Assembly: GCA_964503955.1 (NCBI GenBank)
Contig: CAZDCG010000001.1
Span: 109,804-173,803, forward strand
Direction of reading: 5' to 3'
DNA from: an uncultured Gammaproteobacteria bacterium
Lineage (GTDB): Bacteria > Patescibacteriota > Patescibacteriia > VMEV01 > CAYQCH01
Length of the DNA stretch: 64,000 nucleotides
Position 1 is the stretch's first letter. Every line of letters starts with the position of its first letter. The notes below the pieces were generated by a model. It was not told where the DNA came from, ran no database searches, and was given only the letters and a program-made list of their open reading frames with translations. This document shows, one piece after another, positions 15,815-40,681 of this stretch. The translations under genes were made by a program, and so were the position numbers.

Positions 15815-15846
15815 TGTCGGGCGCGGGGCTCTGTCCCCGCCCGACT
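15815..15846. repeat. GC-rich hairpin repeat copy 2 (TGTCGGGCGCGGGGCTCTGTCCCCGCCCGAC)
   Basis: Read on the minus strand it is followed by ATTTTT, so it is the likely intrinsic terminator of the malic-enzyme gene. The family is also at 2856 and 57776. Confidence 0.6.
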
Positions 15847-15896
15847 GATCGCAAACAGAGCCTGCGACCGACACTATTTTAATGTTTGGAGCCAGT

Positions 15897-17045: not shown

Positions 17046-17118
17046 ACAGCAAATGTTTTTCAGTGGATAAAAAAACTGCCCACAGCATAGCACAGTTAAA
17101 AAATAATGCACTTAGCGT

Positions 17119-23602: not shown

Positions 23603-24376
23603 ATGAAACCTGAGCAATTTGATGGAATCATTCTTCAAGAGTCTACCATTCGCGTCACAGAGGATACGAAGCAGCCTCTGATTCTTGCTCATGGTGGAAA
23701 AATGACCGTGCACGTGCTTTCCGGCATTGAATGCGAATTGATCCAATTGGCACCAGCCGAGCTTGAAATCAATCTTGGCTGCCAGGCGCGGTTAACGCAT
23801 TACGCGGCGCAAGGAGGATCCGTCAAAGTCACACAGCAGCAGGATTCGTCCTATTCCGCCGTTCTTGTAAATACCAACACCCCCATGTCTCAGGATCTGG
23901 AAGTGAAACTGCAGGAAGAAGGAAGCGAGGCTGATATCATCGGTCTGCTGACAGCAGACGGAACAGACAAAGTGCGCCAGCAGATTCGCATTGAGCATGC
24001 CGCTTCTCATACCCGCAGCAATCAATACGTCAAAAGCATTGCCAATGAACGCGGAGAAATCACCATGCACGCCCGCATTGTGGTGAACAAAAACGTCAAA
24101 CAGGTACAGGCAACCCAGCTGAATAAAAATATGCTCCTTTCAGATCAGGCGCTTGTACACGCGGAGCCGTGGCTTGAAATCGATTCAGACGATGTTCAGG
24201 TGGCGCATGGTTCGGCCACGGGCCAACTTGACCAGGAACAGCTTGCCTATCTGACAAGCCGCGGTATTGAAACCGAACAGGCGCAAACCATGCTTAAGCA
24301 GGCTTTTATTATCGAGCTGGCTGAGCTGATCGCCAATGATCGCTTCAGATCCCTTGTTCTGGAACAAACTGTATGA
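23603..24376 (+). CDS. sufD: SufD-like Fe-S assembly protein (short, 257 aa)
   Basis: C-terminal SufBD beta-helix motif and its position between sufC and sufS. Confidence 0.7.
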   Translation: MKPEQFDGIILQESTIRVTEDTKQPLILAHGGKMTVHVLSGIECELIQLAPAELEINLGCQARLTHYAAQGGSVKVTQQQDSSYSAVLVNTNTPMSQDLEVKLQEEGSEADIIGLLTADGTDKVRQQIRIEHAASHTRSNQYVKSIANERGEITMHARIVVNKNVKQVQATQLNKNMLLSDQALVHAEPWLEIDSDDVQVAHGSATGQLDQEQLAYLTSRGIETEQAQTMLKQAFIIELAELIANDRFRSLVLEQTV

Positions 24377-25575
24377 AACAAGATGACGTAAAAAATGATT
24401 TTCCCCTTTTTCAAAACGAGCCAAACCTCGTGTACCTTGACAGTGCGGCAACAGCGCAGAAACCGCAGGTTGTTCTTGATGCCATGAACGCGTTTTATAC
24501 GCGCGACAATGCAAATATACACCGCGGAGTGTATCAGCTCAGCCAGCGTGCAACGCATGCTTACGAAATAGCCCGCAGCAAAGTCGCCAAACTGATCAAT
24601 GCGAATACCAATGAAATGATTTTTGTGCGCTCCACCACGGAAGCAATTAATCTTGTAGCTTCCTCTTTTGGCCAAGAGTATGTCCATGAAGGCGATGAAA
24701 TCCTGATCAGCGGGATGGAACATCATGCCAATCTTGTGCCCTGGCAGCTGCTCGCCGCCAGCAAAAAGGCAAGGCTCTGCGTCATCCCGATTCAAGACGA
24801 CGGATCCATCAGCCTTGAAGACGTAAAACGATCGCTTTCAGACAAAACCAAATTGCTTGCGATCACGCATGTTTCAAATACGCTGGGGACCATCAACCCG
24901 GTAAAAGATATCATCCGCCTGGCGCATGAAAAAGGCATTCCGGTTCTTATTGACGGCGCGCAAGCCGTGCCGCATATGCGCGTGGATATTAAAGACCTCG
25001 ACGCGGATTTTTATGCCTTTTCAGGGCACAAAATGTACGGCCCGACCGGTATTGGCGCGCTATACATGAAAGAACAATGGATGGAAACTCTGCCTCCGTA
25101 TCAAAGCGGCGGAGATATGATTGAGTCGGTTACCTTTGAATCAACAACCTTTGCCAAAGGCCCGCAAAAATTTGAAGCCGGCACACCCGCTATTGCCGGA
25201 GCGATCGGGCTTGGCGCGGCTGCGGATTATCTCATGCGGCTTGGATTAAACAATATCGCGTCCCATGAACAGGCATTAACCGCGTACGCCAAGCAGGAAC
25301 TTTCTAATATCCCCGGTCTGCGCTTCATCGGCAATGCGCCAAAGCAAGCAGGAATTATCTCTTTTGTCATTGAAGGCATCCATCCGCATGATATCGGCAC
25401 CATTCTTGATCAGCATCAGATCGCCATTCGTACAGGACATCACTGCACGCAGCCGCTGATGGAGCGATTCAATGTACCGGCCACATCCCGCTTCTCATTT
25501 GGTGTTTACAATATGATGGAAGATATCGATAAGGCAGTGGACGCACTGAAAGAAGCCATCAAGCTCCTTGGCTAA
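24373..25575 (+). CDS. sufS: Cysteine desulfurase SufS (class V aminotransferase)
   Basis: YLDSAATAQKPQVV..., FSGHKMYGPTGIGALY PLP-lysine region and active-site loop HHCTQPL. Confidence 0.9.
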   Translation: MKQDDVKNDFPLFQNEPNLVYLDSAATAQKPQVVLDAMNAFYTRDNANIHRGVYQLSQRATHAYEIARSKVAKLINANTNEMIFVRSTTEAINLVASSFGQEYVHEGDEILISGMEHHANLVPWQLLAASKKARLCVIPIQDDGSISLEDVKRSLSDKTKLLAITHVSNTLGTINPVKDIIRLAHEKGIPVLIDGAQAVPHMRVDIKDLDADFYAFSGHKMYGPTGIGALYMKEQWMETLPPYQSGGDMIESVTFESTTFAKGPQKFEAGTPAIAGAIGLGAAADYLMRLGLNNIASHEQALTAYAKQELSNIPGLRFIGNAPKQAGIISFVIEGIHPHDIGTILDQHQIAIRTGHHCTQPLMERFNVPATSRFSFGVYNMMEDIDKAVDALKEAIKLLG

Positions 25576-25588
25576 CTGCCCTGCCACA

Positions 25589-25620
25589 CCTTAACCCGTG
25601 AACACATTAACTCGTTAACC
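25589..25620. repeat. GTTAAC-family repeat abutting the sufU start codon
   Basis: ccTTAACCCGTGAACAcATTAACTCGTTAACC-ATG. It shares a 14-mer with 17637 and a 16-mer with 44012. Confidence 0.6.
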
Positions 25621-26052
25621 ATGCTTGCTGATCTATATAAAGAACTTGTCCTTGAACACAATAAAAACCCGCGGAACAAGCGGAAGCTTTCTGCTGCCTC
25701 GCATACAGCCGAGGGATACAATCCGCTTTGCGGAGATCATCTCTGGGTGGAAATGCACATCAAAGATGATCAGATTGATGAAATCGCCTTTCAGGGAGAA
25801 GGCTGCGCGCTCTCAACCGCGTCGGCATCTATCATGACAACCTATTTGCAAAAAAAATCGGCAAGTGAAGCAGAAGCTAGCTGCAAACAAGTCACCAATG
25901 CATTTACGGGAGAAGGAACCTTGCCCGAAGAGCTTGAAGCGCTCTCAGGAGTGAATGCCTTTCCCATGCGGGTTAAATGCGTAACTTTGCCATGGCATAC
26001 AGCCAAGGCCGCATTGAACAAATCCCAGCAACCCGTGAAAACGGAAGAATAA
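25621..26052 (+). CDS. sufU: SufU/IscU-like zinc-dependent sulfurtransferase
   Basis: NPLCGDHLWVEM and QGEGCALSTASASIM motifs. Confidence 0.85.
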   Translation: MLADLYKELVLEHNKNPRNKRKLSAASHTAEGYNPLCGDHLWVEMHIKDDQIDEIAFQGEGCALSTASASIMTTYLQKKSASEAEASCKQVTNAFTGEGTLPEELEALSGVNAFPMRVKCVTLPWHTAKAALNKSQQPVKTEE

Positions 26053-26143: not shown

Positions 26144-27013
26144 GTGCCACTGGAGGACATCGTGCATGAGATCACCCTTATCGGGGAAGCCGGCGGCATG
26201 CGTAATGCATTTGCTTCCGGCCTTAAAAATGGATTTATCCAAAAAGGGCTGCACCCTGACATGATCAGCCGCGCCTATGGCTGCTCATCGGCAGTTCCGC
26301 AGCTCGCCTACTTCCTTACCGGCGATTGCGCGCAGACGCGCCGGATCTGGCTGAGGCTTACGGATCGAGCGCTTCTCAATCCGCGGCGAGTTTTCAGCGC
26401 CAAGCACGTGGGCGATATTGACCGGCTGGTCGACCATCACTGCGCGACCCTGAAGATACCCAAGCTTGACGAGGTGCGCCTCTTCGCCGTCCTGGCACAT
26501 CACAAATCCGCCGAGCCGCATTACCTGCGCGTGACCAGCACGAACGCACGCGAGGTACTGAAAGCGGGCTGCGTGGTCCCCACGCTTGGCCGTCCAATCT
26601 ATGTCAGCGGAGAACGCTACATTGACGGAGGGGTTCTAGACCCGCTCCCCGTCATTCACGCTTATAAAGAGGGCGCGCGCAGGATCATCGTTATCAGCAA
26701 CCGGCCGGCAGGCTATGCGCCTCGAGGAGCCATAAGAGAGCTGATCCTTCCCTGGCTGCTGTTTTGCAACCACCCAAAGCTGCTTGCGCGCTTCTCCCGC
26801 CTTTGGGAACACTACAATCAAACCATCGAGTTCATGAAGCGGCCTCCAGCCGATCTCGACCTGCTTGTGATACGGCCCGACCACCCGCTTCCACCCATGC
26901 TCACACGCAATCCGCGGCTCGTCCGCCAGGCCTACAACGCAGGCCGGCAGATCGCAAGCCGAGAATGGCCGAGAGTGGAGCAATTCCTCTCGCCGAAAAA
27001 GAGCCCCGCCTGA
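26144..27013 (+). CDS. Patatin-like phospholipase family protein (GC-rich, about 60%)
   Basis: Oxyanion-hole-like LIGEAGGMRNAFASG, nucleophile elbow YGCSSA (G-x-S-x-A instead of G-x-S-x-G) and the DGG motif IDGGVLDPLPV. Confidence 0.6.
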   Translation: MPLEDIVHEITLIGEAGGMRNAFASGLKNGFIQKGLHPDMISRAYGCSSAVPQLAYFLTGDCAQTRRIWLRLTDRALLNPRRVFSAKHVGDIDRLVDHHCATLKIPKLDEVRLFAVLAHHKSAEPHYLRVTSTNAREVLKAGCVVPTLGRPIYVSGERYIDGGVLDPLPVIHAYKEGARRIIVISNRPAGYAPRGAIRELILPWLLFCNHPKLLARFSRLWEHYNQTIEFMKRPPADLDLLVIRPDHPLPPMLTRNPRLVRQAYNAGRQIASREWPRVEQFLSPKKSPA

Positions 27014-27124: not shown

Positions 27125-28156
27125 ATGGAAGGCAATTACTCAGCATGGGATATCAATATCCCGGATTTTTATGGTTTGGAACACGATCGCGACAAGCGTT
27201 TGTTCCTGATCCGTTTTGCTGTTCTCGCCCCCTCAAGTCATAATAGCCAGCCTTGGAAATTTCGTGTTTCCGATCAGACAATCGAAATCCGCCCTGAATC
27301 AAGCCGAGCCCTGCCGGACAGCGACGCAGACAACCGGCAGCTATTTATCAGCCTCGGATGCGCCATGGCCAATCTCCTCATTGCAGCTGAGCATTATGGA
27401 TATGCAACTGAAACTTTCATACAAGAGGCGGGGGCAGCTAGTTTCATACAAATCACCTTGCAACAACAAGACGACCGCCATTCGCGCGCATCGCAGCTGG
27501 AGCTGATCTACGCAATCTCTGAGCGCGTCACAAGCCGCGATAAATTCACGGAAACGATCATACCGGATTCGCTGCAGCGGTTCTTGCAAACAGCCAAAGA
27601 ACAGGATCTTTCCATCTTTTTAATCGATGAGCAAAACGTCAAGGAACAGATCGCGGATTGCGTCATGCGGGCGACCGATCAAGCCATGGCAGATAAACAA
27701 TTCCGTACCGAGCTTTCTCAATACGTTAAACCCAATACGACGAAGGATTTTCTCGGAATGCCTGCTTTTGGGATGGGCATTCCCACCCCTCTGTCACTGA
27801 TAGCCCCTCGAATCATCAAACATTTCGATGTAGGCAAACTCTCCCGCAAAACGGAAATGAATCTGCTGAAATCACATACGCCGTTTATGGGGATCATTGC
27901 CTCTGAGCAGGATACGCCAAAGGCATGGATCAAAACCGGAGCATTCTATCAGCAAATAGCACTGCGGGCGCATGCAAACGGGCTCGCCACGCACCCGCTG
28001 GCCGCGGCCATTCAAATTGGCGACCACTATAAAAATCTGCAGACAATTCTTCAGACAACCGCGCGCCCGCAATTCTTCTTCAGGCTTGGTATTGCCAAAT
28101 CCTTCCCCCATCACAGCCCGCGCATACCCGCAAAGGATGTAATCGAATCCGTATGA
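27125..28156 (+). CDS. Acg-family nitroreductase-like FMN-binding protein (double nitroreductase fold)
   Basis: VLAPSSHNSQPWKF motif near the N-terminus and 343-aa length typical of the Acg/Rv2032 family rather than SagB (no PSAGxLYP). Confidence 0.6.
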   Translation: MEGNYSAWDINIPDFYGLEHDRDKRLFLIRFAVLAPSSHNSQPWKFRVSDQTIEIRPESSRALPDSDADNRQLFISLGCAMANLLIAAEHYGYATETFIQEAGAASFIQITLQQQDDRHSRASQLELIYAISERVTSRDKFTETIIPDSLQRFLQTAKEQDLSIFLIDEQNVKEQIADCVMRATDQAMADKQFRTELSQYVKPNTTKDFLGMPAFGMGIPTPLSLIAPRIIKHFDVGKLSRKTEMNLLKSHTPFMGIIASEQDTPKAWIKTGAFYQQIALRAHANGLATHPLAAAIQIGDHYKNLQTILQTTARPQFFFRLGIAKSFPHHSPRIPAKDVIESV

Positions 28157-29208
28157 ACAGTTTAACCGCTTTACCTGAATACGACGGACATAAATATGTT
28201 CTGCGCTTCCAGGAGCCGCAATCCCAGCTGGTCGGCTATATTGCCATTCACCGAAGCGATGCCTTGCGCCCCGCTTTTGGCGCTACCCGCTTATGGCATT
28301 ATGAAACCGAAGAAGAAGCCCTGGCGGACGTTCTCCGGCTTTCAAAAGGCATGTCCAAAAAATCGGCATTGGCAGGATTGCGCTATGGAGGCGCCAAGGC
28401 GGTTATTATCGAACCGAAAGGAGCATATAATAGGAACAGACTCCTAAAAGCATATGCGCATGTTGTCAACGATCTTCACGGCCAATTTATTACCGGAACG
28501 GATGCAGGCATGACCAGAGATGATGTCATTGAAATGCGTAAATATTCGCGCTATTTCGTGGGGGTAAACGTGGATCCGACAAATTATACGGTGTTGGGCA
28601 TTTTATCAGCAATAAAAACAACGCTGAAATTCCTCTATCAGGACGGATCGCTTCAGCAACGTAGTTTTGCGATCCAAGGAGCAGGAAAAATCGGGGGGGA
28701 ACTCATCCGCCTCCTTTACCCCCAAACAAAGGCAATCTACGTAAGCGAAATTGACAAAACAAAGGTTTCAACATTAAAGGATCGTTACCCGGAAATTCAG
28801 TTTTGCGAGCCAGACGATATTCACAAAATGCCCGTTGATATTTTTTCCCCTTGTGCGCTGGCATACGCCATCAATAGAAAAACCGTTGCGGAAATCCAAA
28901 GCAAAGCTGTCGTAGGAGGAGCGAATAATCAGCTTGAAAATACCACATTAGCGGATGAACTCAGACTTCGAGGCATTCTCTACGCGCCTGATTATGTCGT
29001 AAATGCGGGAGGATTGATCAGCGTAGCGAGCGAATACGAATCGCATCACCTGTCTCCGCCTATCCTTGAAGAAAAGATTGGAAAAATCAGCTCTCTGCTG
29101 GAGCAGCTCTTCCGCGAAAGCTCCACCCTCAGAGCTTCAACGGTAGCAATCGCGGAACAGATAGCTCATCAACAGATAAATAGTTTTGAACCTTATCGAT
29201 ATAACTGA
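28153..29208 (+). CDS. Glu/Leu/Phe/Val dehydrogenase family protein (leucine/phenylalanine dehydrogenase-like)
   Basis: GATRLWHYETEEEALADVLRLSKGMSKKSALAGLRYGGAKAVII (catalytic Lys region), NAD Rossmann GAGKIGG, C-terminal NAGGLI. There is a 4-bp overlap with the upstream gene. Confidence 0.75.
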   Translation: MNSLTALPEYDGHKYVLRFQEPQSQLVGYIAIHRSDALRPAFGATRLWHYETEEEALADVLRLSKGMSKKSALAGLRYGGAKAVIIEPKGAYNRNRLLKAYAHVVNDLHGQFITGTDAGMTRDDVIEMRKYSRYFVGVNVDPTNYTVLGILSAIKTTLKFLYQDGSLQQRSFAIQGAGKIGGELIRLLYPQTKAIYVSEIDKTKVSTLKDRYPEIQFCEPDDIHKMPVDIFSPCALAYAINRKTVAEIQSKAVVGGANNQLENTTLADELRLRGILYAPDYVVNAGGLISVASEYESHHLSPPILEEKIGKISSLLEQLFRESSTLRASTVAIAEQIAHQQINSFEPYRYN

Positions 29209-29211
29209 CCT

Positions 29212-30024
29212 ATGAACAATATCCCAGATTCGATCGCTCCTGATTGGTGGAAAAGCGAAGGAGGATTCTTCGGAAAACTGTACGCGCAAGCCGATGACTC
29301 ATTGGAAGGATTTCTCAACCAGCCGCTCAGCATGAATCAACGCTTAATGGATGAAGTTGAAGGAGTCATGCGGCTGACAAATACCCAACCCGCTTCCCGG
29401 TTGATGGATTGTCCATCCGGCTACGGGCGCCACTCCCTCGGGCTTGCCCAAAAAGGGCTTGAGGTCACAGGCGTTGACATCAACGATGAACACCTTGAAC
29501 TCGCCGAACAGTCCCGTCAAAAAAGAGGAATCAAGAATGTTCGTTGGATAAAGCGCGACATGCGCGATCTTGATTTCGCAGAGGAATTCGACGCGGCCAT
29601 CAACATGTTCTATTCTTTTGGATTCTTTCAAGACGAAGCCGACGACCAGAAATCAATCGAGAATTTCTACCGCGCACTCAAACCGGGCGGGAAATGGCTG
29701 ATGCACACGTTTATCACGATTCCCAAAATCCGAGCCGGCAATTACAAAAAGCATGATGTCAGAACGCTCACATCTGGAAATAAGCTTGAGCTATACCGTG
29801 ATTTTGATGAGACGACCAAGAGAGAGATTGGCACCTGGTCTATTGTGAAACCGGATGGCAGCCGGGAAGAACTCGCGCCGTATTCAATGAGAATCTACGA
29901 CACAACGGAATATGAAGCGATGACGAAAAAAGCAGGTTTTAGCAAATGTGAGGCATTTGGTGACTGGAAAGGCACTCCGTATACCCCAGAATCCGAATTG
30001 CTGATTTTCGTCGCGACAAAATAA
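29212..30024 (+). CDS. Class I SAM-dependent methyltransferase
   Basis: Motif I LMDCPSGYGRHSLGLAQKG-LEVTGVDIN, with acidic residues at the ends of beta2 and beta4. Confidence 0.7.
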   Translation: MNNIPDSIAPDWWKSEGGFFGKLYAQADDSLEGFLNQPLSMNQRLMDEVEGVMRLTNTQPASRLMDCPSGYGRHSLGLAQKGLEVTGVDINDEHLELAEQSRQKRGIKNVRWIKRDMRDLDFAEEFDAAINMFYSFGFFQDEADDQKSIENFYRALKPGGKWLMHTFITIPKIRAGNYKKHDVRTLTSGNKLELYRDFDETTKREIGTWSIVKPDGSREELAPYSMRIYDTTEYEAMTKKAGFSKCEAFGDWKGTPYTPESELLIFVATK

Positions 30025-30026
30025 GT

Positions 30027-31550
30027 ATGGATTTTACGAAATCCTCAACCCAGCTTGATACAAAACAAGGATGGGAAGAATTTTTCAAGGAAAAAATTAT
30101 TGATTTTCCTGATCTTTCTGATACAAACGCTTTTTCACAAAACGCGTTGATGCTGTTCCGAAAAATGGCAACCAGTGTACCTGCTTATAAGGATTTCCTT
30201 AAAAAGCAGAGGGTCGCTCCAGAAAAAATCAAAACGGTTTCCGACCTAAAACAAGTTCCGTGTATCGACAAAGCAAATTATCTGAACCGGTATCCCCTCG
30301 AAGCCTTGTGCTGGAACGGCGATCTTCGCGCCCCCATTATCTCATCAAGCTCGGGTTCATCTGGCACCCCGACCTTCTGGCCTCGATCAGAGGAAATCGA
30401 ACTTGAAACAAGCATTATTTACGAGCTGTTTCTTACCCAGATTTACAAAATTCACGAAAAAAAAACCCTTTTGATCAATGGGTTTGCAATGGGAATCTAC
30501 ATTGGAGGAAGTTTCACATTAAACGCCTGCATGCGTTTAAGCAAAAAAGGCTACCCACTCTCCATAGTCACCCCTGGGATCAACAAGAAAGATTTCCTGA
30601 ACAGCCTTGAGCGCCTTCATCCCTACTTCGATCAAGTTATCCTTGGAGGGTACCCACCCTTTATTAAAGATATCCTCGATGATTGCAAGCAACAGGGCTT
30701 GGAGATCCCCTCAGGAAAACTGAAACTCTTTCTCGCAGCGGAAATGATCAGCGAAACTTTCCGTTCTTATTTGTATAAGCACGCATGCATAGACAATGAC
30801 GCATACTACTTCAATTCAATGAATCTGTACGGAACGGCTGACGCGGCCATTGCTGGACATGAAACCCCACTCACCATTTTCCTGAGCCGCCTTCTAGCAA
30901 ACAACGCAGAACTTTGCAGAAAAATTTTTGATGTTTCGTATGTTCCGTCTTTGAATATGGCCTACCCATTCTTCAAACACATGGATCTGCTTGAAAATGA
31001 GTTGCTTATCTCAACGTGGAATAATGCTATTCCCCTATGCCGGTATAACATTCACGACAAGGGGAAACTTTTCACCTTGGAGGACATGCTGCAAATCCTA
31101 GATCAAGCACAGATTTCCAAAGCAGAATTGGAACAAAGTATTGGAAACACGTTCCTTCTTCCTTACCAGTATGTGGCGGTTTATGGAAAAAGTGATAATA
31201 CCGCATCTCTGTACGGCCTGCTGATCTACCCCGAGACAATTAAAAAAGCTCTTTTTTCTCCAGAGTTAAATGATACCATCACGGGGAAATTTACGATGCA
31301 AACAAAACTTGACGCAAAGCAGAACCAATTCCTGGAAATCCACATTGAATTGCTTCCAAACGCGACAAGATCTCAAGAAATGGAAGAAAAAATTGTCGCC
31401 GCAATCGTGCGCACATTAATCGAAGATAATGCGGAATATCGATTCCTTCAAAAAGATCACCCGGAGCGATACAAACCCATCATTCGCCTCCACCCTTACG
31501 GAGAGCCGGAATATTTCCCGGAAGGAATTAAACAAAAATGGACGAGATAA
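30027..31550 (+). CDS. PaaK-like adenylate-forming enzyme (phenylacetate-CoA ligase / coenzyme F390 synthetase family, ANL superfamily)
   Basis: Phosphate-binding loop SSSGSSGTPTFWP and overall about 500-aa PaaK-like architecture. Confidence 0.65.
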   Translation: MDFTKSSTQLDTKQGWEEFFKEKIIDFPDLSDTNAFSQNALMLFRKMATSVPAYKDFLKKQRVAPEKIKTVSDLKQVPCIDKANYLNRYPLEALCWNGDLRAPIISSSSGSSGTPTFWPRSEEIELETSIIYELFLTQIYKIHEKKTLLINGFAMGIYIGGSFTLNACMRLSKKGYPLSIVTPGINKKDFLNSLERLHPYFDQVILGGYPPFIKDILDDCKQQGLEIPSGKLKLFLAAEMISETFRSYLYKHACIDNDAYYFNSMNLYGTADAAIAGHETPLTIFLSRLLANNAELCRKIFDVSYVPSLNMAYPFFKHMDLLENELLISTWNNAIPLCRYNIHDKGKLFTLEDMLQILDQAQISKAELEQSIGNTFLLPYQYVAVYGKSDNTASLYGLLIYPETIKKALFSPELNDTITGKFTMQTKLDAKQNQFLEIHIELLPNATRSQEMEEKIVAAIVRTLIEDNAEYRFLQKDHPERYKPIIRLHPYGEPEYFPEGIKQKWTR

Positions 31551-31551
31551 T

Positions 31552-32724
31552 ATGACTCTAGAGCAGCACCTCAAACGTTTCACGCAAGATCAGCGATTTA
31601 CTCCAGAATTTTTCGACTTGTCCAAAAGCATAGACCGAAAGAGATTGGCAGCATACTTTGACCAAAACTTGATTGTCGAAGTAAACGATTCTTATACGGA
31701 CCAATTAGAGGAATTATTTCAAATAGACAATCCCAGATTAGTTCATGCACAAGCGTATGAAACCTCATTGGCTGAATTTCTTGAGGAAATAGAATCGCGA
31801 GCCCCGCTTTACCAACAAGGTAAATGGGTCTATTTCCCATGGAACAGAAAATTGATCCATATTCTTGATGAACCATTTTTTCAAAAAGTCCGGTTCTCAA
31901 GAAACCGTAATTATATCAGCCGTGACGAACAAGCAAATTTCTACCACAGCTCTATCGGTATAGCAGGCTTGAGTGTTGGAAACAGCATCGCAACGACCAT
32001 CGTAATGCTCGGGGGAGCAAAACATATCCGATTGGCTGATTTTGATGAGCTTAGCTTATCAAACTGCAATAGGATCCGCACGAGCATTGAAAACCTTGGA
32101 ATTCCAAAAATTATTATCACGGCCAGACAAATCTACGAACTCAACCCGTACGCAAACGTGCAGATATTCCCTGAGGGGATCACCGAAGAAAATATTGAAG
32201 CATTCTTGAGTTCATCGCCCCCCCTCGATATCGTTATCGACGAGCTTGATAACCTCGCCATGAAATACTTGTTAAGAATGAAAGCGAAGGAAAACAGAAT
32301 TCCCGTACTTATGGGGACAGATAACGGTGACGACTGCATTATCGATTTGGAACGATACGATCTTGACCCCACACGGGAGATTTTTCACGGCCGCCTAAAC
32401 GGTGTAGAATTCAATGATCTAAAAAATCTCACAAAAGCACAAATAGGAAAAATCGCGGGGCGCCTTATCGGCATTGAAAATATTTCCTCGAGAATGATGG
32501 AATCTCTTCCCGAAATCGGAACATCGCTCATTTCATGGCCCCAGCTTGGAAGCGCGGCTCTTATGAATGGAGCTGCTCTGGCCTACTGTGCTCGCAGAAT
32601 TCTCAACAAGCAGCCAATTGCAGACGGCAGATGTTTCCTTTCCGTTGAAAAAGAGCTTTTGCCAGCCAAATCATATGATGCAGAACTGCAGAAAAGGAAA
32701 AAACTAGCTAGCCAATTAATGTGA
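31552..32724 (+). CDS. E1/ThiF/MoeB-family adenylyltransferase with about 170-aa N-terminal extension
   Basis: Rossmann nucleotide loop SIGIAGLSVGNSIATTIVMLGGAKHIRLADFDELSLSNCNRI matches the ThiF family. There are no C-terminal CxxC pairs. ATG at 31552 is 1 nt after the PaaK-like stop, so the ORF-track start at 31429 is rejected. Confidence 0.7.
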   Translation: MTLEQHLKRFTQDQRFTPEFFDLSKSIDRKRLAAYFDQNLIVEVNDSYTDQLEELFQIDNPRLVHAQAYETSLAEFLEEIESRAPLYQQGKWVYFPWNRKLIHILDEPFFQKVRFSRNRNYISRDEQANFYHSSIGIAGLSVGNSIATTIVMLGGAKHIRLADFDELSLSNCNRIRTSIENLGIPKIIITARQIYELNPYANVQIFPEGITEENIEAFLSSSPPLDIVIDELDNLAMKYLLRMKAKENRIPVLMGTDNGDDCIIDLERYDLDPTREIFHGRLNGVEFNDLKNLTKAQIGKIAGRLIGIENISSRMMESLPEIGTSLISWPQLGSAALMNGAALAYCARRILNKQPIADGRCFLSVEKELLPAKSYDAELQKRKKLASQLM

Positions 32725-33614
32725 TTTTTGTGACAGATGCCACATCAAAGCTATTACAAAAATGGGTAACATCTCCTGTGAAAGAATCTACTTTCAGCTC
32801 GGGGGGGACCATCATCAAGTATATAAAAACAGGGAACGGTCCTGCGGTATTGATGCTGCACGGAGCCAATATGGGGTGGAAGCAATGGTTTCCAAACATT
32901 GATCATTTAGCGAAATCTTGCACCATTTATGCTATCGATCTTCCAGGGGCGGGCGAATCATCTCCTATAAATTACGATGAAGTATGCTTTGAAAAAAACT
33001 ATGTACAACCCGTTTCATTTTTCATGAAGAATGTTCTCCCTCCTGATTTTTCAATGATTGCGCATTCTTTCTCAGGATGGTTATCTATGCGTCTCATTGA
33101 ACGGGAGCATATACCACAAAGCCTCGTCCTCATAAATCCGGTCGGCTTCACCAGGAAAATCCCTAAAAAACACCTCGCTTTATCATCCCGGGCGTTAACA
33201 CAGCTTCTTGTGAGGACGGTAATGAAACCGACTCAGAAAAATATCCGGAAGTTTTGCCGCGATGTTTGCTATAATAGTAGTACCATCCCCCCCGAGTTTA
33301 TCAATGCTTATACGGCAGATCTTCGTTTCGACAACCACCCCTTTTGCTTCATTCACAGCTTGATAGGATCAATGAAACTAAAAGAGGAACTGCTGATTCA
33401 GCCAAGCAACTATCTCCCACAAGTACCAATCTTACTTATCCATGGCAAATATGATCCGTTGGTTTTGGAAGAAACGATGACGAGAGCCAAAGAACTCCTT
33501 CGTCCACGGCGCTTTTACCAGTTTCAAAAATCAGGCCATGTCCCCTCAATTGAAGAATATCAACTCTTCAATTCTCTTGCATCGAGCTTCATAAGACAAA
33601 CATGCAGTTCATAA
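32721..33614 (+). CDS. Alpha/beta-hydrolase fold protein
   Basis: HGANMGWKQW oxyanion region and nucleophile elbow AHSFSGW. It overlaps the E1-like stop. Confidence 0.65.
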   Translation: MIFVTDATSKLLQKWVTSPVKESTFSSGGTIIKYIKTGNGPAVLMLHGANMGWKQWFPNIDHLAKSCTIYAIDLPGAGESSPINYDEVCFEKNYVQPVSFFMKNVLPPDFSMIAHSFSGWLSMRLIEREHIPQSLVLINPVGFTRKIPKKHLALSSRALTQLLVRTVMKPTQKNIRKFCRDVCYNSSTIPPEFINAYTADLRFDNHPFCFIHSLIGSMKLKEELLIQPSNYLPQVPILLIHGKYDPLVLEETMTRAKELLRPRRFYQFQKSGHVPSIEEYQLFNSLASSFIRQTCSS

Positions 33615-35227
33615 CGGAAATAATCTCTCTTCCTTCCTTTAGCCTGAGTTTTCTTGTCATTTCGGTATGCATAAACTTTATCCTAGCAATATTGGTCTTA
33701 AAGAATGATTATCGCAGCGACACAAACAGGTTGTACGGCATCCTTTCCATTTTTCTGTCGATTTGGCTCGTAGTAATTTTTGGCTCATCACGTTCAGATT
33801 TATCCCCCCAGAATGCTCTTTTCCTTGCAAGATTGAGTCTGTTCATTGCAGCTCCAATGACGCTGACATTCTTTATATTCGCCCATACTATCCCTTCGGA
33901 TCGAATACAGCTCAAGAAAAAATGGCTGGCAACAAGCGTACTAGTCACTCTTTTTATCATGGCAGCATGCTTTACGCCGTTTCTGATGATTCTAGGAGAA
34001 CAGAATGGAATAGAGCCATCGTGGGGAATGGCCGGCTTTGGTACATTAACTATTTTCTACAGTTTAAGCGCTGTTTTTCTCCTCACAAAAAAGCTCCTCA
34101 CATCTCAAGGGATCTTACGAAAGCAGTACCAATACATCATGCTTGGGCTGCTCCTTATGACCGGATTTATCACATCCACGATTTTTTTCCCCGTCCTGCT
34201 TGAAAACAATCAGACATACCTGCCCTTAGCCCCGCTTTACGCGCTGTTTTTCTTAGGCGCTACCGCGTATTCCATCATTCATCATCAACTCTTTGATTTA
34301 AAAATCATCGCGACTAAATTTTTTGTTGCGATTCTGTCAATCATCTTTTTTGCAAGGCTCTTCGCGACAAGTGACGTCGACACATTTCTATTTGAACTCT
34401 CCATCTTCCTCTCTACCGTCTTCTTCGGCTATCTCCTGATAAAGAGCGTAAATAAGGAAGTCGAGCAGCGCGAGCAGCTGGCAAAGCTCAACCGCCGCCT
34501 AAAGCGCTCCAATATCCGCTTAGAAGAATTATTAAAACTCAAATCAGAATTTGTGGGTATTGCTTCCCATCAGCTGCGAACTCCCCTGACCGTTCTTCGA
34601 GGACTGCTTGATATGCAGGTAAACGGCGATTTCAACAACCTCCCGGAAGCAAAAGTAAAATCCCTTCAAATGGACATGCTTAAAAGCGCGGTTCGTCTCA
34701 ACAGTCTCATCAGCGATCTGATGGATATGACGAAAATGGAAGGCGGCATCACTTTGCAGATTAAAGAAGTCAATCTATGTGATTTGCTGTCTGAAATCAC
34801 GCAGCAGCTCTCGTCAAATTTCAAGCAAAAAAATCTAGAAACCAGCATGGTTTGCGTCAATGAAATCCCGCCAATTGAAGGCGATCCTAAATACCTGCAT
34901 GAAGCCTTCTCAAACCTCATCGACAATGCCGAAAAGTACACTCAAAAAGGAGGCATTTCTATCCGCGTGCGGAGAGTGGGGCCGGAAGTCGTGGTTAAAA
35001 TTGTCGATACCGGTATCGGTTTAACCGCGGAAGACAAAGCCAAACTGTTTAAAAAATTCACGCGCGGCGAACGATCCACGACCATCCACACCGAAGGAAC
35101 CGGACTTGGACTCTATATCGTCAAACGCGTGATCGACGCGCATAACGGCCAGATCAGCTTCGACAGCGAGGGAGCCGGGAAAGGAACGACCGTAACGGTC
35201 ACCTTGCCGATCAAATACGAAAACTAG
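33602..35227 (+). CDS. Sensor histidine kinase with N-terminal 6-7 TM sensing domain (orphan, no adjacent response regulator)
   Basis: H-box FVGIASHQLRTPL, N/G boxes LIDNAEKYT and GTGLGLYIVKRVIDAHNG. Confidence 0.8.
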   Translation: MQFITEIISLPSFSLSFLVISVCINFILAILVLKNDYRSDTNRLYGILSIFLSIWLVVIFGSSRSDLSPQNALFLARLSLFIAAPMTLTFFIFAHTIPSDRIQLKKKWLATSVLVTLFIMAACFTPFLMILGEQNGIEPSWGMAGFGTLTIFYSLSAVFLLTKKLLTSQGILRKQYQYIMLGLLLMTGFITSTIFFPVLLENNQTYLPLAPLYALFFLGATAYSIIHHQLFDLKIIATKFFVAILSIIFFARLFATSDVDTFLFELSIFLSTVFFGYLLIKSVNKEVEQREQLAKLNRRLKRSNIRLEELLKLKSEFVGIASHQLRTPLTVLRGLLDMQVNGDFNNLPEAKVKSLQMDMLKSAVRLNSLISDLMDMTKMEGGITLQIKEVNLCDLLSEITQQLSSNFKQKNLETSMVCVNEIPPIEGDPKYLHEAFSNLIDNAEKYTQKGGISIRVRRVGPEVVVKIVDTGIGLTAEDKAKLFKKFTRGERSTTIHTEGTGLGLYIVKRVIDAHNGQISFDSEGAGKGTTVTVTLPIKYEN

Positions 35228-38119: not shown

Positions 38120-40681
38120 TTACAGATTTTCAAATGGCGACGGTCTTTTCGCCCCCTGCTTTGCCGCATGCACGCGGTCTAAAATTTCCTGTTCAACTTC
38201 CAAGCGGGACCGGCCGTATTTAAGACGCGATAATTCCGCCATGGCATTCTTAATGGCAAAACCATGCCCCTCTTCCCAGGCAGCGCTCTTCATGGAAAAT
38301 GGCCTGAGCGTCTGATTATTCACCAGCAATTTCACGTAGAACGAGAATTGCTCCATATTCAGCAAATCATATTCGTTAAAGACAGGCGCCAATTCTTTTG
38401 CAAAAATCTCCGCGTCTTCCACGCCGACTTTGCTGACTACCATTGTTCCGACATTTCCAAAAACCGCGTCTTTGATTTCTGAATCCCCCCCCTCAACAAG
38501 CTGGCCAACATATTGATGAGCAATGACCAGATTAAGCAAATACTTGCGTGCCTCTGAAAGAATGATGGCAATACTGTCGGTCGTAAAGTTTTGGAATTCA
38601 TCGATATACAAGTAAAAATCCTTTCGCTGCGATTTGGGTTGATCCGTGCGGCTCAAGGCCGCCATGAGAATTTTACCCACAATCACCATGCCAAGCAGAT
38701 GCGCGTTCAGCTCACCAATCTTTCCTTTGGACAGCTTTACCAACAAAATCTTTTGCTGGTCCATGAGTTCGCGGAAATTAAAGGCGCTCTTCTGCTGGCC
38801 GATAATCGGGCGCATAACATCGTTTGAGACGAATTGCGTCAGCTTGCTGGTGATATAGGGCACCATATTGGCCAGCGCCGCTTCCCCGCCCGCTTTTTCA
38901 GCTTCATTACGCCAGAAATCCACCACCACCTGGTTGCGGCATTTGGAAAGTTTATATGCCCTGAATTGTTCGTCTGAAAGCACGCGGGAAATCTCCATCA
39001 AGGTCGATCCGGATTCAGGATCATCCATGATCAGCAGCATGGCATTACGCATATACTGCTCAAACATCGGACCGCCCGTTGATTTCAGGTCGTATAGCTT
39101 GTCAAAGATTTTGAGCATTTCATTAATCACGAACGTTTTCTGCTCAGGGTATTTGGGATCATAATCAAGCAAATTCATGCCAAGCGGATACTCAATATCG
39201 GCAGGATCAAAAATCACCACGTCTTCCACGCGATGTTTGGGGATCCCCCCCAGCACATCGTCGATAAGGTCTCCATGCGGATCAATCACGCAAACGCCTT
39301 CGCCGGCCTCGATGTCGCGCCTTGCCATTGAGGTAATGAAGTATGTTTTCCCCGCCCCGGATTTACCAATCACGTACATGTGGCGGCGGCGGTCTTCACG
39401 CAGCATATGCACGGCCGTCTTTTTTCCTCGATATTCGTTATAGCCAAGCAATATCCCTTCCTGCGGCACATTAAGCGAAACAGGCGCGCGCTTTGCTTCA
39501 AGCCATTGGATATTCGTTGTTTCCGTTTGCGGCAAAGGGAAATGATAGAGGCTGGCCAGCTCCTCCGTATTAAAGATCATTTTATTTTTCGGATTGAAAT
39601 TGCGAAAAATAAAATCTTCGATCAGACGCTTCTGATTCTTTGGCTTGCGCTGACGGAAACTATTGCCGTATTCATAAATATTGTACTGGGCAAAAGCACC
39701 TGTGATCGAATCCAAATAGGCCTGCGCTTGAAAAGACTGGCCGGCGGAAACAACCACGCGGATATTCGCTTCAACGCCTCCCTTGCTGGCTTTTGTTTCG
39801 AGCCGTTTGATCATTTCCTCTTCAAGCGGTGAAAGCTGATACGGCTGATCATCTTTTTTGCCGGATGAAAACATGCTTGAAATAAAGCCGGAAAATCCGC
39901 CGGAAACCGCTTTTTTCGCTTCTTTCAAAGGCTTGCCTTGCCGCATGGCAGACGCAATTTTTCTCCCCCACTGATGCCATTGCCTTGGAGCGGAACGAAC
40001 AATGATTTGAATCGCCGCGCCGTCAAGCCCCTGGATTTGCGACAAAGGATGCGTGAGCGCGTTTAATGGATCCGATTCAAGCTCCTGATACGTTTTTATC
40101 GGGAAATACGGCTCGCGCTCAAAGGTGAGCGATGTCCCCATGGCATATCCCTGCGGATGAAAGATATTGTAATCTTCCGCTTCCTCGATATGCGCCTGCG
40201 GCCACTGCGCCTGAATCTGCTGCTCAATAAACTTATGCAGATATTGCGGCGCGGCCACATAGAAGGAAACGCGCTCATTGTGAACGACAATTTCAAACGA
40301 AATGGTATCTTCGCGGCCAAAGAACCAGGCTTTCAATCCGCTTTGCGGTTTCAGTCCGCCAATCGCGCTGAAAAATGTTTCCGCCACCGAAATGGATTCG
40401 CGCACGCCTTGCTGCGAATCCTGGGATTTCGCCTCCCCTTCCTGCTTAAGGCTTTCTTTTGGCACGAGAATCTGTAAAACCCGTTTTTCGTACTGAGCCG
40501 GCAAAGACCTTCCTTTGCGGGCAAGCGATCTAAGGACGAGGAGAACGATGATGCCAAACGCAACAAGGAGCGCGATGAGCAGAATAAGCAATACCGTGGG
40601 ATCACGGAAAAATTGCTCGGCATTTGCCTGCGAAGCCTGTGTATTGACCGACACAGGCAATTGGAAGAGAAACGAGAACAT
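38120..40681 (-). CDS. TraD/VirD4-like (type IV coupling protein / DUF87 AAA-like) membrane ATPase, 853 aa
   Basis: Two N-terminal TM helices, Walker A GKSGAGKT, Walker B YLYIDEFQNF and IAHQ motif. The family-level call is tentative. Confidence 0.5.
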   Translation of the reverse strand: MFSFLFQLPVSVNTQASQANAEQFFRDPTVLLILLIALLVAFGIIVLLVLRSLARKGRSLPAQYEKRVLQILVPKESLKQEGEAKSQDSQQGVRESISVAETFFSAIGGLKPQSGLKAWFFGREDTISFEIVVHNERVSFYVAAPQYLHKFIEQQIQAQWPQAHIEEAEDYNIFHPQGYAMGTSLTFEREPYFPIKTYQELESDPLNALTHPLSQIQGLDGAAIQIIVRSAPRQWHQWGRKIASAMRQGKPLKEAKKAVSGGFSGFISSMFSSGKKDDQPYQLSPLEEEMIKRLETKASKGGVEANIRVVVSAGQSFQAQAYLDSITGAFAQYNIYEYGNSFRQRKPKNQKRLIEDFIFRNFNPKNKMIFNTEELASLYHFPLPQTETTNIQWLEAKRAPVSLNVPQEGILLGYNEYRGKKTAVHMLREDRRRHMYVIGKSGAGKTYFITSMARRDIEAGEGVCVIDPHGDLIDDVLGGIPKHRVEDVVIFDPADIEYPLGMNLLDYDPKYPEQKTFVINEMLKIFDKLYDLKSTGGPMFEQYMRNAMLLIMDDPESGSTLMEISRVLSDEQFRAYKLSKCRNQVVVDFWRNEAEKAGGEAALANMVPYITSKLTQFVSNDVMRPIIGQQKSAFNFRELMDQQKILLVKLSKGKIGELNAHLLGMVIVGKILMAALSRTDQPKSQRKDFYLYIDEFQNFTTDSIAIILSEARKYLLNLVIAHQYVGQLVEGGDSEIKDAVFGNVGTMVVSKVGVEDAEIFAKELAPVFNEYDLLNMEQFSFYVKLLVNNQTLRPFSMKSAAWEEGHGFAIKNAMAELSRLKYGRSRLEVEQEILDRVHAAKQGAKRPSPFENL

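What the first reader, a model, noticed from the sequence alone, without database searches (positions are those of the whole stretch)
31552..32724. E1/ThiF-like enzyme with a long N-terminal extension and no zinc-binding CxxC tail
The Rossmann nucleotide-binding segment (GIAGLSVGNSIATTIVMLGGAKHIRLADFDELSLSNCNRI) starts only at about residue 175. The preceding about 170 aa have no obvious family. MccB (microcin C synthetase) is the established precedent for an E1 that uses an N-terminal 'peptide clamp' to adenylate a peptide C-terminus. E1-like enzymes of bacterial ubiquitin-like and CBASS systems also carry extra domains, but here no Ubl, E2 or JAB gene is nearby. Its immediate 1-nt spacing to a PaaK-like ligase suggests sequential carboxylate activation steps.
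Basis: inference. Interest (0 to 1): 0.7.

Follow-up and report, generated by a model that had tools for sequence, protein, structure and literature searches.

The report
Split oxazolone-synthase-like ThiF enzyme operon
The gene is not an orphan E1 with a microcin-type peptide clamp: it is the stand-alone cyclase half of the recently characterised TrzS/OxzB "oxazolone synthetase" family, and across candidate-phyla-radiation (CPR) bacteria it sits in a conserved, uncharacterised operon with an unusual acid-activating ligase, a flavin oxidase and a membrane sensor kinase.

Summary
The ORF 31552-32724 (390 aa) is real. It is ThiF-like, has no CxxC pair, and starts 1 nt after a PaaK-like gene.

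The extension has a family. Alone it matches the N-terminus of NCBIfam "Rv1355c family" (E 2.6e-12), and the whole protein matches that model's ThiF half (E 4e-105). [quoted passage not shown] An FDO gene lies in the same operon.

What is new is the context. In Patescibacteria the usual N-acyltransferase is absent. Instead, a ~500-aa PaaK-like ligase is present in 26 of 27 well-flanked loci, an FDO in 23 and a 7TM histidine kinase in 20. One natural ORF fuses the amino-acid dehydrogenase, the PaaK-like ligase and the ThiF-like enzyme.

Best reading: the ligase N-acylates an amino acid using ATP, the ThiF-like enzyme adenylates and cyclises the product, and the FDO desaturates it. The product may be sensed by the kinase. 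This is a new variant of a known kind; the chemistry is inferred.

The parts
31552..32724 (+). ThiF-like ATP-dependent adenylating enzyme/cyclase, 390 aa. It is the stand-alone equivalent of the N-terminal (ThiF) half of TrzS/Rv1355c.
   Evidence: NCBIfam NF005901: residues 11-373 match model positions 6-343, E 4e-105, 352 bits. 34% identity to a Rhodococcus Rv1355c-family fusion, E 5e-58. AF2 model pLDDT 89.5, pTM 0.90.
31552..31866 (+). Clade-specific N-terminal domain (residues ~1-105; beta-alpha-beta-alpha-alpha-beta-beta; W92-x3-P96-W97 motif). Fold has no solved relative.
31870..32331 (+). Adenylation core: Arg-finger helix (R114, R117, N118, R119), Gly loop 136-143, D163/D165, S170-N171-x-N173-R174, K186, E231-x-D233.
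   Evidence: Alignment to E. coli MoeB: R14~R119, D62~D163, R73~R174, K86~K186, D130~D233. These residues are invariant across the six CPR, Streptomyces and Rhodococcus sequences aligned.
32332..32724 (+). C-terminal region with the invariant W329-P330-Q331-L332 motif and no CxxC zinc site. It has no sequence-detectable PDB relative.
   Evidence: Lower model confidence (pLDDT 57-80) over residues ~290-340.
30027..31550 (+). Divergent PaaK-like adenylate-forming ligase, 507 aa; proposed ATP-dependent acylating enzyme that stands in for the N-acyltransferase.
   Evidence: No Pfam hit. Profile vs PDB: PaaK 2y4o at E 8.5e-15, with a conserved STSGSTGxP motif. Present in 26 of 27 loci. Fused to the ThiF-like enzyme in P0378.
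27125..28156 (+). [quoted passage not shown]
   Evidence: NF047509 at 233.6 bits, above the cutoff of 199; also matches the C-terminal half of the Rv1355c model at E 1.5e-20. 24% identity to the C-half of the Rhodococcus fusion, E 1e-14. Acg-type and TrzS-type FDOs never co-occur across loci.
28153..29208 (+). Trp/Leu-type amino-acid dehydrogenase (ELFV family); interconverts an amino acid and its 2-oxo acid.
   Evidence: Pfam ELFV. Closest PDB entries: TrpDH 5b37 (205 bits), LeuDH (195), PheDH (112). Present in 10 of 27 loci, with a class IV aminotransferase in 4 others and never both. Fused in P0378.
29212..30024 (+). Class I SAM-dependent methyltransferase (tailoring enzyme).
   Evidence: Pfam. 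The same MTase-PaaK-like-ThiF-like order recurs in the closest subclade. Stieleria BGCs also pair a methyltransferase with ThiF and nitroreductase genes.
32721..33614 (+). Alpha/beta-fold hydrolase overlapping both neighbours. It may open or transfer the activated ring; that role is inferred.
   Evidence: Pfam. A homologue sits in the same position in L097 (31% identity), L010, L035 and L045.
33602..35227 (+). HisKA_7TM sensor histidine kinase, translationally coupled to the operon.
   Evidence: Pfam HisKA_7TM, HisKA and HATPase_c. Overlaps the hydrolase gene by 13 nt. Present in 20 of 27 loci, usually directly after the last biosynthetic gene.

Best explanation
The gene encodes the ThiF-like, ATP-dependent cyclase component of a split, variant oxazolone-synthetase-type pathway (TrzS/TyzB/OxzB kind).

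Proposed mechanism:
(1) The Trp/Leu-type dehydrogenase interconverts a hydrophobic or aromatic amino acid and its 2-oxo acid.
(2) The PaaK-like ligase adenylates a carboxylic acid and couples it directly to an amino acid, giving an N-acyl amino acid. It thereby replaces the acyl-CoA-dependent N-acyltransferase of the known systems.
(3) The ThiF-like enzyme adenylates the free carboxylate of that product, using R117/R119, R174, K186 and D233. The amide oxygen attacks the acyl-adenylate and closes a 5(4H)-oxazolone or similar ring.
(4) The FDO desaturates C-alpha/C-beta with O2.
(5) The methyltransferase and the alpha/beta hydrolase tailor or open the reactive ring.
(6) The co-transcribed 7TM histidine kinase may sense the product.

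Shown here: clade membership, conserved ATP-site residues, the conserved operon, and the gene fusion. Inferred: the substrate, the acylation role of the ligase, the ring chemistry, and any link to the kinase. The roughly 105-aa N-domain is a hallmark of the clade; its role is unknown.
For: Family assignment: 352 bits, E 4e-105, to the ThiF half of NF005901. The next-best models score about 53-67 bits (PRK08223 67.2, PRK14851 64.9, ThiF models 53-59), and MoeB and TcdA score about 43. 34% identity to an annotated Rv1355c-family fusion, with shared WVYFPW..RNRN and WPQLG motifs.

Biochemistry of the family: TrzS catalyses ATP-dependent cyclisation and then O2-dependent desaturation, and its D217A variant is inactive (PMC12856293). 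TyzB/TyzC are a split version (PMC10404671). OxzB is the fused proteobacterial version.

ATP-site residues are conserved.

FDO partner: one is in the same operon. In most relatives the adjacent downstream FDO matches the TrzS C-terminal half at E 1e-34 to 1e-70. An FDO is present in 23 of 27 loci, and the two FDO types never co-occur.

PaaK-like partner: present in 26 of 27 loci and directly upstream in 43 of 50. No TrzA-like or GNAT gene is found in the window or in the CPR loci L001-L092. PaaK-family enzymes can couple an acyl-AMP to a non-CoA nucleophile, as NatL2 does (PMC7204872).

Fusion: a natural ELFV + PaaK-like + ThiF-like ORF has no internal stop and is flanked by FDO, hydrolase and kinase genes in the same order as the window.

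Coupling: gaps of -13 to +3 nt from the FDO gene to the kinase gene.
Against: No biochemistry exists for any CPR member.

A defining partner of the known systems, the N-acyl amino acid synthase/acyltransferase, is absent, so the substrate may not be an N-acyl amino acid at all.

The window's FDO is Acg-type and not adjacent to the ThiF-like gene. It scores only 73 bits against the TrzS C-terminal half.

Some relatives lack an FDO: 4 of 27 loci, and L096, which has an NAD(P)-Rossmann protein instead. Streptomyces homologues pair with a GNAT and no FDO.

The score against NF005901 is below its full-length cutoff of 476.

The Stieleria paper notes that the role of the ThiF proteins in related pathways is still 'enigmatic', because no oxazolones were observed there.
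Confidence: 0.6

Rival explanations
1. Same clade and same adenylation chemistry, but a different product. The ThiF-like enzyme activates a carboxylate for an intermolecular or other intramolecular capture, such as amide or ester formation, a six-membered ring from an N-(2-oxoacyl) amino acid, or a lactam. The operon then makes something other than an oxazolone.
For: The acyltransferase is replaced by a PaaK-like ligase, and a 2-oxo-acid-forming dehydrogenase or aminotransferase is often present. Some loci lack an FDO. ThiF-like enzymes use many different nucleophiles (PMC12596934). An alpha/beta hydrolase follows the gene in this subtype.
Against: The closest characterised relatives all form oxazolones. 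The FDO partner is retained in 23 of 27 loci.
Confidence: 0.25
2. One reading: an MccB-like enzyme whose N-terminal 'peptide clamp' binds a ribosomal peptide and adenylates its C-terminus (RiPP maturation).
For: A ThiF core with an N-terminal extension and no Ubl partner. PaaA, a RiPP ThiF-like enzyme, is among the fold hits to the core.
Confidence: 0.04
3. A canonical ThiF/MoeB-type activator of a sulfur-carrier or ubiquitin-like protein, perhaps linked to the SufS/SufU genes 5 kb upstream.
For: The ThiF fold and conserved ATP site. SufD/SufS/SufU lie at 23603-26052.
Against: No ThiS/MoaD-like ORF ending in GG. No CxxC zinc site. ThiF and MoeB models score 37-59 bits against cutoffs of 152-376. 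SufS and SufU are not found near any of the 24 well-flanked related loci.
Confidence: 0.03
4. A TcdA-like tRNA t6A dehydratase, or a defence-system E1 such as CBASS Cap2.
For: TcdA is the best PDB sequence hit, E 3e-9. There are weak PADLOC E1-E2 hits.
Against: The TcdA model scores 43.8 bits against a cutoff of 304. PADLOC hits are at most 24 bits and cover only the Rossmann segment, and there is no E2 domain. A conserved operon with a ligase, an FDO and a kinase fits neither role.
Confidence: 0.03

Closest known systems
TrzS (Rv1355c, 'MoeY') of Mycobacterium tuberculosis, M. smegmatis and Rhodococcus jostii RHA1: the ThiF-FDO fusion that makes N-acyl tryptazolones (Kleetz et al., JBC 2025, PMC12856293)
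   Same: The same ThiF subclade, including the N-terminal extension. The adenylation Asp is conserved (D233). The WPQLG motif is shared. An FDO partner is present.
   Different: Here the ThiF half is a separate 390-aa protein. The N-domain is about 19 residues longer, with an extra helix at 69-83. The FDO in the window is Acg-type and four genes away. There is no TrzA acyltransferase; a PaaK-like ligase takes its place. The host is a CPR bacterium, not an actinobacterium.
TyzB/TyzC/TyzA of M. tuberculosis: the split ThiF + FDO + acyltransferase system that makes N-acyl tyrazolones (Grigg et al., JBC 2023, PMC10404671)
   Same: A split architecture, with a stand-alone ThiF-like cyclase and a stand-alone FDO in one operon.
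   Different: TyzB is 318 aa, about 70 residues shorter than the window protein. Whether it carries the N-domain was not tested here. TyzA, an acyl-CoA-dependent N-acyltransferase, is required in that system and is absent here.
OxzB/OxzA of Pseudoalteromonas rubra: the first oxazolone synthetase (de Rond et al. 2021; bioRxiv 10.1101/2020.06.11.147165)
   Same: ThiF plus nitroreductase chemistry acting on a small molecule rather than on a protein.
   Different: OxzB is a fusion and is paired with the OxzA N-acyltransferase. It belongs to a different SSN subcluster from TrzS. It was not compared directly here.
MccB (microcin C7 synthetase) and PaaA: RiPP-modifying ThiF-like enzymes with an N-terminal peptide clamp/RRE
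   Same: A ThiF core carrying an N-terminal appendage, with no Ubl substrate.
   Different: The N-domain fold is unrelated to any solved structure. There is no precursor peptide gene. MccB is not among the sequence or fold hits.
NatL2/BomJ and AjiA1: PaaK-family ligases that couple an acyl-AMP to a non-CoA nucleophile (PMC7204872). This is the comparison for the partner gene.
   Same: The partner at 30027-31550 belongs to the PaaK branch and, like NatL2, is proposed to work without CoA.
   Different: Similarity is only weak (E about 4e-3). The CPR protein is about 65-70 aa longer than PaaK, and its nucleophile is unknown.

Membership tests
TrzS/Rv1355c-type ThiF-like oxazolone cyclase clade (NCBIfam NF005901, ThiF half) | Sequence match to the family model over the whole ThiF half, clearly better than to other ThiF families | tested here: met
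   352.5 bits, E 4e-105, residues 11-373 to model positions 6-343. Next-best models score about 53-67 bits (PRK08223 67.2, PRK14851 64.9, ThiF models 53-59), and MoeB and TcdA about 43. The score is below the full-length cutoff of 476 because the FDO half is a separate gene. BLASTP to an annotated family member gives 34% identity, E 5e-58.
TrzS/Rv1355c-type ThiF-like oxazolone cyclase clade | Clade-specific N-terminal region preceding the ThiF domain | tested here: met
   Residues 1-116 alone match model positions 6-90 at E 2.6e-12. hhalign gives 96.3% probability against the Rhodococcus fusion's N-terminus. 40 of the top 150 N-domain hits are 640-799 aa, the size of ThiF-FDO fusions; one of them (P0301) was confirmed by Pfam.
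TrzS/Rv1355c-type ThiF-like oxazolone cyclase clade | Conserved adenylation-site Asp (TrzS D217 in M. smegmatis, equivalent to MoeB D130) and the other ATP-binding residues | tested here: met
   D233 aligns with MoeB D130 and with the Asp of the Rhodococcus fusion. R174, K186 and D163 are also conserved.
TrzS/Rv1355c-type ThiF-like oxazolone cyclase clade | FDO (nitroreductase-superfamily oxidase) fused or adjacent | tested here: met
   An FDO is in the same translationally coupled operon at 27125-28156, but it is Acg-type and not adjacent. In relatives the adjacent FDO matches the TrzS C-terminal half. An FDO is present in 23 of 27 loci.
TrzS/Rv1355c-type ThiF-like oxazolone cyclase clade | Adjacent N-acyl amino acid synthase/acyltransferase (TrzA, TyzA or OxzA) | tested here: not met
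   No such domain among the operon's genes. tblastn with a candidate Rhodococcus neighbour and with the Streptomyces GNAT partners finds nothing in the window or in the CPR loci L001-L092.
TrzS/Rv1355c-type ThiF-like oxazolone cyclase clade | ATP-dependent cyclisation of an N-acyl amino acid to an oxazolone | not testable with these tools
   Requires enzyme assays or heterologous expression with LC-MS.
MccB-type peptide-adenylating E1 with an N-terminal peptide clamp (RRE) | N-terminal domain with the clamp/RRE (winged-helix-like) fold | tested here: not met
MccB-type peptide-adenylating E1 with an N-terminal peptide clamp (RRE) | Adjacent short precursor-peptide gene | tested here: not met
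   Intergenic gaps from the FDO gene to the kinase gene are -13 to +3 nt, and no small ORF is conserved.
ThiF/MoeB sulfur-carrier-activating E1 | ThiS/MoaD-like partner ending in GG, a CxxC zinc site, and a model score above cutoff | tested here: not met
   No credible GG-ending ORF. No CxxC. Scores of 37-59 bits against cutoffs of 152-376.
TcdA/CsdL tRNA ct6A dehydratase | Equivalog model score above cutoff | tested here: not met
   NF011696 scores 43.8 bits against a cutoff of 304.
CBASS/defence E1-E2 (Cap2-like) | E1 and E2 domains with a significant PADLOC model match | tested here: not met
   Best match is 24 bits over residues 131-240 only. There is no E2 region, and no defence hits among the ligase, FDO, hydrolase or patatin-like proteins scanned.

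The most novel reading that the evidence does not exclude
Patescibacteria (CPR), organisms known for having almost no biosynthetic capacity, widely conserve a dedicated operon for an amino-acid-derived heterocyclic small molecule (an oxazolone or a relative). A CoA-independent PaaK-like ligase replaces the acyltransferase. The operon is transcriptionally welded to a 7TM sensor histidine kinase that detects the product. This would be an autoinducer-type or host-directed signalling circuit, and it would give oxazolones the physiological role that is still missing in mycobacteria.
Probability: 0.2. Interest if true: 0.85.

Novelty: new variant of a known kind. Interest (0 to 1): 0.6.

Why it matters
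A 2025 review counts oxazolone-forming enzymes as the only validated case of a ThiF-like enzyme acting on a small molecule, and the physiological role of oxazolones is an open question in tuberculosis research.

This window shows that the same enzyme clade is widespread in CPR bacteria. More than 1,200 homologues of the protein were found, and the top-ranked ones, including every named source among them, are from Patescibacteria. There the clade has a different first enzyme, optional amino-acid dehydrogenase or aminotransferase genes, and an almost obligatory co-transcribed sensor kinase.

If the inferred chemistry holds, it would give three things. First, a CoA-independent route to N-acyl amino acids and oxazolones. 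Second, a rare example of conserved specialised metabolism in ultra-small episymbionts. Third, a testable signalling hypothesis for the whole compound class.

The clade-defining N-terminal domain has no solved structural relative and is a well-defined target for structural work.

Tried and rejected
- Rhodanese, nucleotidyltransferase or TcdA-type explanation for the N-domain: no fold or family support.
- Ubl or sulfur-carrier activation linked to the nearby Suf genes: no GG-ending ORF, no CxxC, and the Suf genes are not conserved near relatives.
- Defence E1: PADLOC gives only weak Rossmann-level hits.
- AFDB fold search for the N-domain: the library was unavailable.
- Genome-contig scan with the single protein: only 4 loci returned. 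The metagenome scan with an alignment gave 80.
- Literature on AclA (PDB 9egb), the best structural neighbour of the core: nothing found.
- Literature on this CPR operon or on HisKA_7TM ligands: nothing relevant.
- Source-record lookup: the cluster look-up for the protein returned no accession or name.
- P0374 (1984 aa, Kelch repeats): dismissed as a spurious repeat match to the N-domain profile.
- Possible gene-calling artefact in the triple fusion P0378: checked, with no internal stop under table 11.
Full report
**1. The observation**

Window 31552-32724 (+) is an intact ORF of 390 aa, starting at an ATG one base after the TAA of the upstream gene, with a GGAcGAG stretch just upstream. A longer reading from the ATG at 31429 would overlap the upstream gene by 122 nt. 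It is not supported by the roughly 395-aa homologues, whose N-termini line up with the 31552 start.

Pfam places a ThiF domain at residues 116-255. The quoted Rossmann motif GIAGLSVGN begins at residue 136, which is 177 only when counted from the upstream ATG. The extension is therefore about 105-115 aa, not about 170. The four cysteines (172, 262, 346, 361) form no CxxC pair.

**2. What the protein is**

NCBIfam's 722-position model NF005901, "Rv1355c family protein", aligns to residues 11-373 over model positions 6-343 (E 4e-105, 352 bits). The next-best models score about 53-67 bits (PRK08223, PRK14851 and the ThiF models), and MoeB and TcdA about 43. The N-terminal 116 residues alone still hit positions 6-90 of that model at E 2.6e-12.

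A direct BLASTP against a Rhodococcus qingshengii plasmid gene annotated "Rv1355c family protein" (710 aa) gives 34% identity over residues 49-369 (E 5e-58). It shares the WVYFPW...RNRN and WPQLG motifs. A profile of the N-domain matches that protein's first 90 residues with 96% probability; the actinobacterial version lacks about 19 residues, corresponding to helix 69-83.

Rv1355c is now characterised. [quoted passage not shown] It converts N-acyl tryptophan, made by the acyltransferase TrzA, into N-acyl tryptazolone. Cyclisation comes before desaturation, and the D217A variant abolishes activity (PMC12856293). TyzB/TyzC/TyzA are a split version in M. tuberculosis (PMC10404671). OxzB/OxzA are the founding proteobacterial system.

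**3. Catalytic apparatus**

I aligned the protein to E. coli MoeB. I wrote that sequence from memory and verified it against 1jw9_B. The alignment pairs MoeB R14, D62, R73, K86 and D130 with target R119, D163, R174, K186 and D233. The importance of these MoeB residues rests on my recollection of the published MoeB-MoaD structural work.

In a six-way alignment spanning CPR, Streptomyces and Rhodococcus proteins, the following are invariant: R114, R117, N118, R119, the G-x-SVG loop, D163, D165, SN-x-NR, K186, E231-x-D233 and W329-P-Q-L332. The N-domain residues W92, P96 and W97 are invariant too. MoeB's two CxxC zinc ligand pairs have no counterpart.

**4. The N-terminal domain**

AlphaFold2 with a 48-sequence alignment gives a confident single-body model (pLDDT 89.5, pTM 0.90). 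Residues 1-120 modelled alone give pLDDT 94, with the topology beta19-21, alpha26-37, beta43-46, alpha48-59, alpha69-83, beta91-95, beta100-104, followed by the Arg-finger helix 107-119.

Searching with the whole model matches only the ThiF core, about 265 columns: AclA 9egb, ThiF, MoeB, yeast Tcd1, PaaA. MccB is not in the top 50.

An exhaustive HMM search of 1.84 billion cluster representatives with the N-domain profile finds 981 proteins (451 at E<=1e-10). Among the best 150, the lengths break down as follows:
- 71 under 300 aa, probably mostly fragments
- 34 of stand-alone size (300-449 aa)
- 40 of 640-799 aa, the size of ThiF-FDO fusions (one, P0301, confirmed by Pfam)
- 5 longer or intermediate

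The domain sits at the extreme N-terminus in nearly all of them; the clear exception is described in section 6. The extension is thus a hallmark of this ThiF clade and not an add-on peculiar to this gene. Its function is unknown. Because its last hairpin runs straight into the Arg-finger helix, I infer, weakly, that it helps to shape the substrate pocket or docks a partner enzyme.

**5. Genomic context in the window**

Seven genes from 27125 to 35227 are separated by -13 to +3 nt:
- Acg-type FDO. It passes the NF047509 cutoff and also matches the C-terminal half of the Rv1355c model at E 1.5e-20. It is 24% identical to the C-terminal half of the Rhodococcus fusion.
- A Trp/Leu-type amino-acid dehydrogenase.
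- A SAM-dependent methyltransferase.
- The PaaK-like ligase.
- The ThiF-like gene.
- An alpha/beta hydrolase.
- A HisKA_7TM histidine kinase.

No Ubl, E2, JAB, precursor-peptide or acyltransferase gene is present.

**6. Conservation**

The protein has 1,266 homologues at E<=1e-5. The best 120 are stand-alone proteins of about 373-430 aa, most of them 385-405, at roughly 50% identity, and all named sources are Patescibacteria. The window itself therefore very likely comes from a CPR genome.

I collected 92 related CPR loci. Among the 27 non-redundant loci with at least 4 kb on both sides:
- the PaaK-like gene is present in 26
- an FDO is present in 23: 19 TrzS-type, 4 Acg-type, never both
- the 7TM kinase is present in 20
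- a response regulator is present in 11
- an ELFV dehydrogenase is present in 10 and a class IV aminotransferase in 4 others, never both

The PaaK-like gene is directly upstream on the same strand in 43 of 50 loci. In the common arrangement the FDO follows the ThiF-like gene, and it matches positions 374-720 of the Rv1355c model at E 1e-34 to 1e-70. That makes it a literal split TrzS in the same domain order.

The window belongs to a rarer subtype with the order FDO (Acg-type), dehydrogenase, methyltransferase, ligase, ThiF-like, hydrolase, kinase. The methyltransferase-ligase-ThiF order recurs in the closest relatives.

In L097/L098 the dehydrogenase, ligase and ThiF-like enzyme are one 1,242-aa ORF. 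It has no internal stop under the standard code. The same sequence is present in two assemblies. It is flanked by homologues of the window's FDO (38% identity), hydrolase (31%) and kinase (33%). This natural fusion is the strongest evidence that the three enzymes act in one pathway.

**7. The partner ligase**

It has no Pfam hit. A 33-sequence profile matches phenylacetate-CoA ligases (2y4o, E 8.5e-15), with the STSGSTGxP motif and an invariant C-terminal Lys conserved. It defines a Patescibacteria-wide family of about 500-520 aa (726 hits).

PaaK-family enzymes that pass the acyl-adenylate to a non-CoA nucleophile are documented, for example NatL2 (PMC7204872). No TrzA-like or GNAT gene is detectable in the window or in the CPR loci L001-L092. 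The ligase is therefore the only conserved candidate for making the acylated substrate.

From general knowledge, CPR bacteria typically lack fatty-acid and CoA biosynthesis, which would rationalise an ATP-driven, CoA-free acylation. That point is inference.

**8. Mechanism proposed**

The steps are: amino acid/2-oxo acid interconversion (dehydrogenase); ATP-dependent N-acylation of an amino acid (ligase); adenylation of the product's carboxylate and ring closure (ThiF-like enzyme, by analogy with TrzS, TyzB and OxzB); O2-dependent desaturation (FDO); and tailoring or ring opening (methyltransferase, hydrolase).

A parallel exists in Stieleria, where methyltransferase + ThiF + nitroreductase + N-acyl amino acid synthase clusters give methylated N-acyl dehydrotyrosines (PMC12479983).

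Only family membership, residue conservation and gene linkage are shown here. The substrates, the product and the order of steps are inferred. I put 0.6 on this mechanism and 0.25 on the variant in which the same adenylation chemistry leads to a different, non-oxazolone product.

**9. Rivals**

Four other readings each fail defining tests: MccB-like RiPP maturation, Ubl or sulfur-carrier activation, TcdA-like tRNA modification, and defence E1.

**10. Novelty and interest**

The gene itself is explained by a family characterised between 2021 and 2025, so the puzzle of an "orphan extension" largely dissolves. I found no literature on three things:
- the CPR-wide variant with a PaaK-like ligase in place of the acyltransferase
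- the near-obligatory co-transcription with a 7TM sensor kinase
- a clade-defining N-domain of unknown fold

Signal-transduction genes also accompany TrzS-type genes in actinobacteria. In M. tuberculosis these are c-di-GMP genes, and on Rhodococcus pLP1 a GGDEF gene lies nearby. This keeps alive the idea that these reactive heterocycles are signals.

I rate it a new variant of a known kind, with interest 0.6.

Noticed in passing
window 14000-15900: A 1.9-kb island of GC 0.56-0.63 against about 0.48 elsewhere. It carries two long overlapping ORFs on opposite strands (14022-15854 on the minus strand, 610 aa; 14232-15848 on the plus strand, 538 aa), neither with a Pfam hit, next to a malic-enzyme gene at 15897-17111 on the minus strand. 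Unexplained.
   Followed up: partly
L097:4001-7729 and L098:819-4547: A natural 1,242-aa triple fusion of ELFV dehydrogenase, PaaK-like ligase and N-domain/ThiF-like enzyme. It has no internal stops and is flanked by FDO, alpha/beta hydrolase and 7TM kinase genes in the same order as the window.
   Followed up: yes
L096:3696-13888: A Patescibacteria locus with two tandem PaaK-like/ThiF-like pairs separated by a methyltransferase. It has no FDO. Instead it has a 461-aa NAD(P)-Rossmann protein carrying a precomputed PF27054 'Beta_methylindole_red_C' hit, and a 7TM-GAF histidine kinase. This suggests pathway diversification and possibly an indole link.
   Followed up: partly
L093:6914-8712 and L095:6932-8706: Streptomyces linear plasmids carry stand-alone homologues (388-390 aa, 34-39% identity, N-domain included). 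Each overlaps a downstream GNAT (Acetyltransf_3) gene, and no FDO is nearby. This is a third partner arrangement for the clade.
   Followed up: partly
L094:2797-7121: On Rhodococcus qingshengii plasmid pLP1, the Rv1355c-family fusion gene lies near a GGDEF-domain gene. This echoes the c-di-GMP genes that flank trzAS in M. tuberculosis (PMC12856293).
   Followed up: no
L002:13198-16254 and L092:11851-12771: In Uhrbacteria-type loci the operon is followed by chorismate mutase, a Trp-repressor-like gene and, in L002/L003, anthranilate synthase genes. This hints at an aromatic amino-acid connection.
   Followed up: no
window 26144-27013: A patatin-like phospholipase with a DUF6363 tail lies just upstream of the operon, in a slightly GC-richer stretch (GC 0.543). 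It is not found near any related locus, so its membership of the system is doubtful.
   Followed up: partly
window 33602-35227: No response-regulator homologue of those paired with this kinase family in related loci (L002, L090) is detectable anywhere in the 64-kb window by tblastn. 11 of 27 related loci have one nearby.
   Followed up: partly
window 38120-40681 (minus strand): An 853-aa TraD/VirD4/TrwB-like coupling-protein ATPase with an N-terminal membrane segment.
   Followed up: no
PDB 9egb/9egc/9egd (AclA, Tenacibaculum discolor): This is the closest solved structure to the ThiF core (Foldseek E 7e-13), deposited 'in complex with substrate'. I could find no paper in the library describing its function.
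   Followed up: partly
P0369 (1061 aa): An N-domain/ThiF/nitroreductase fusion with about 300 further C-terminal residues of unassigned function.
   Followed up: no
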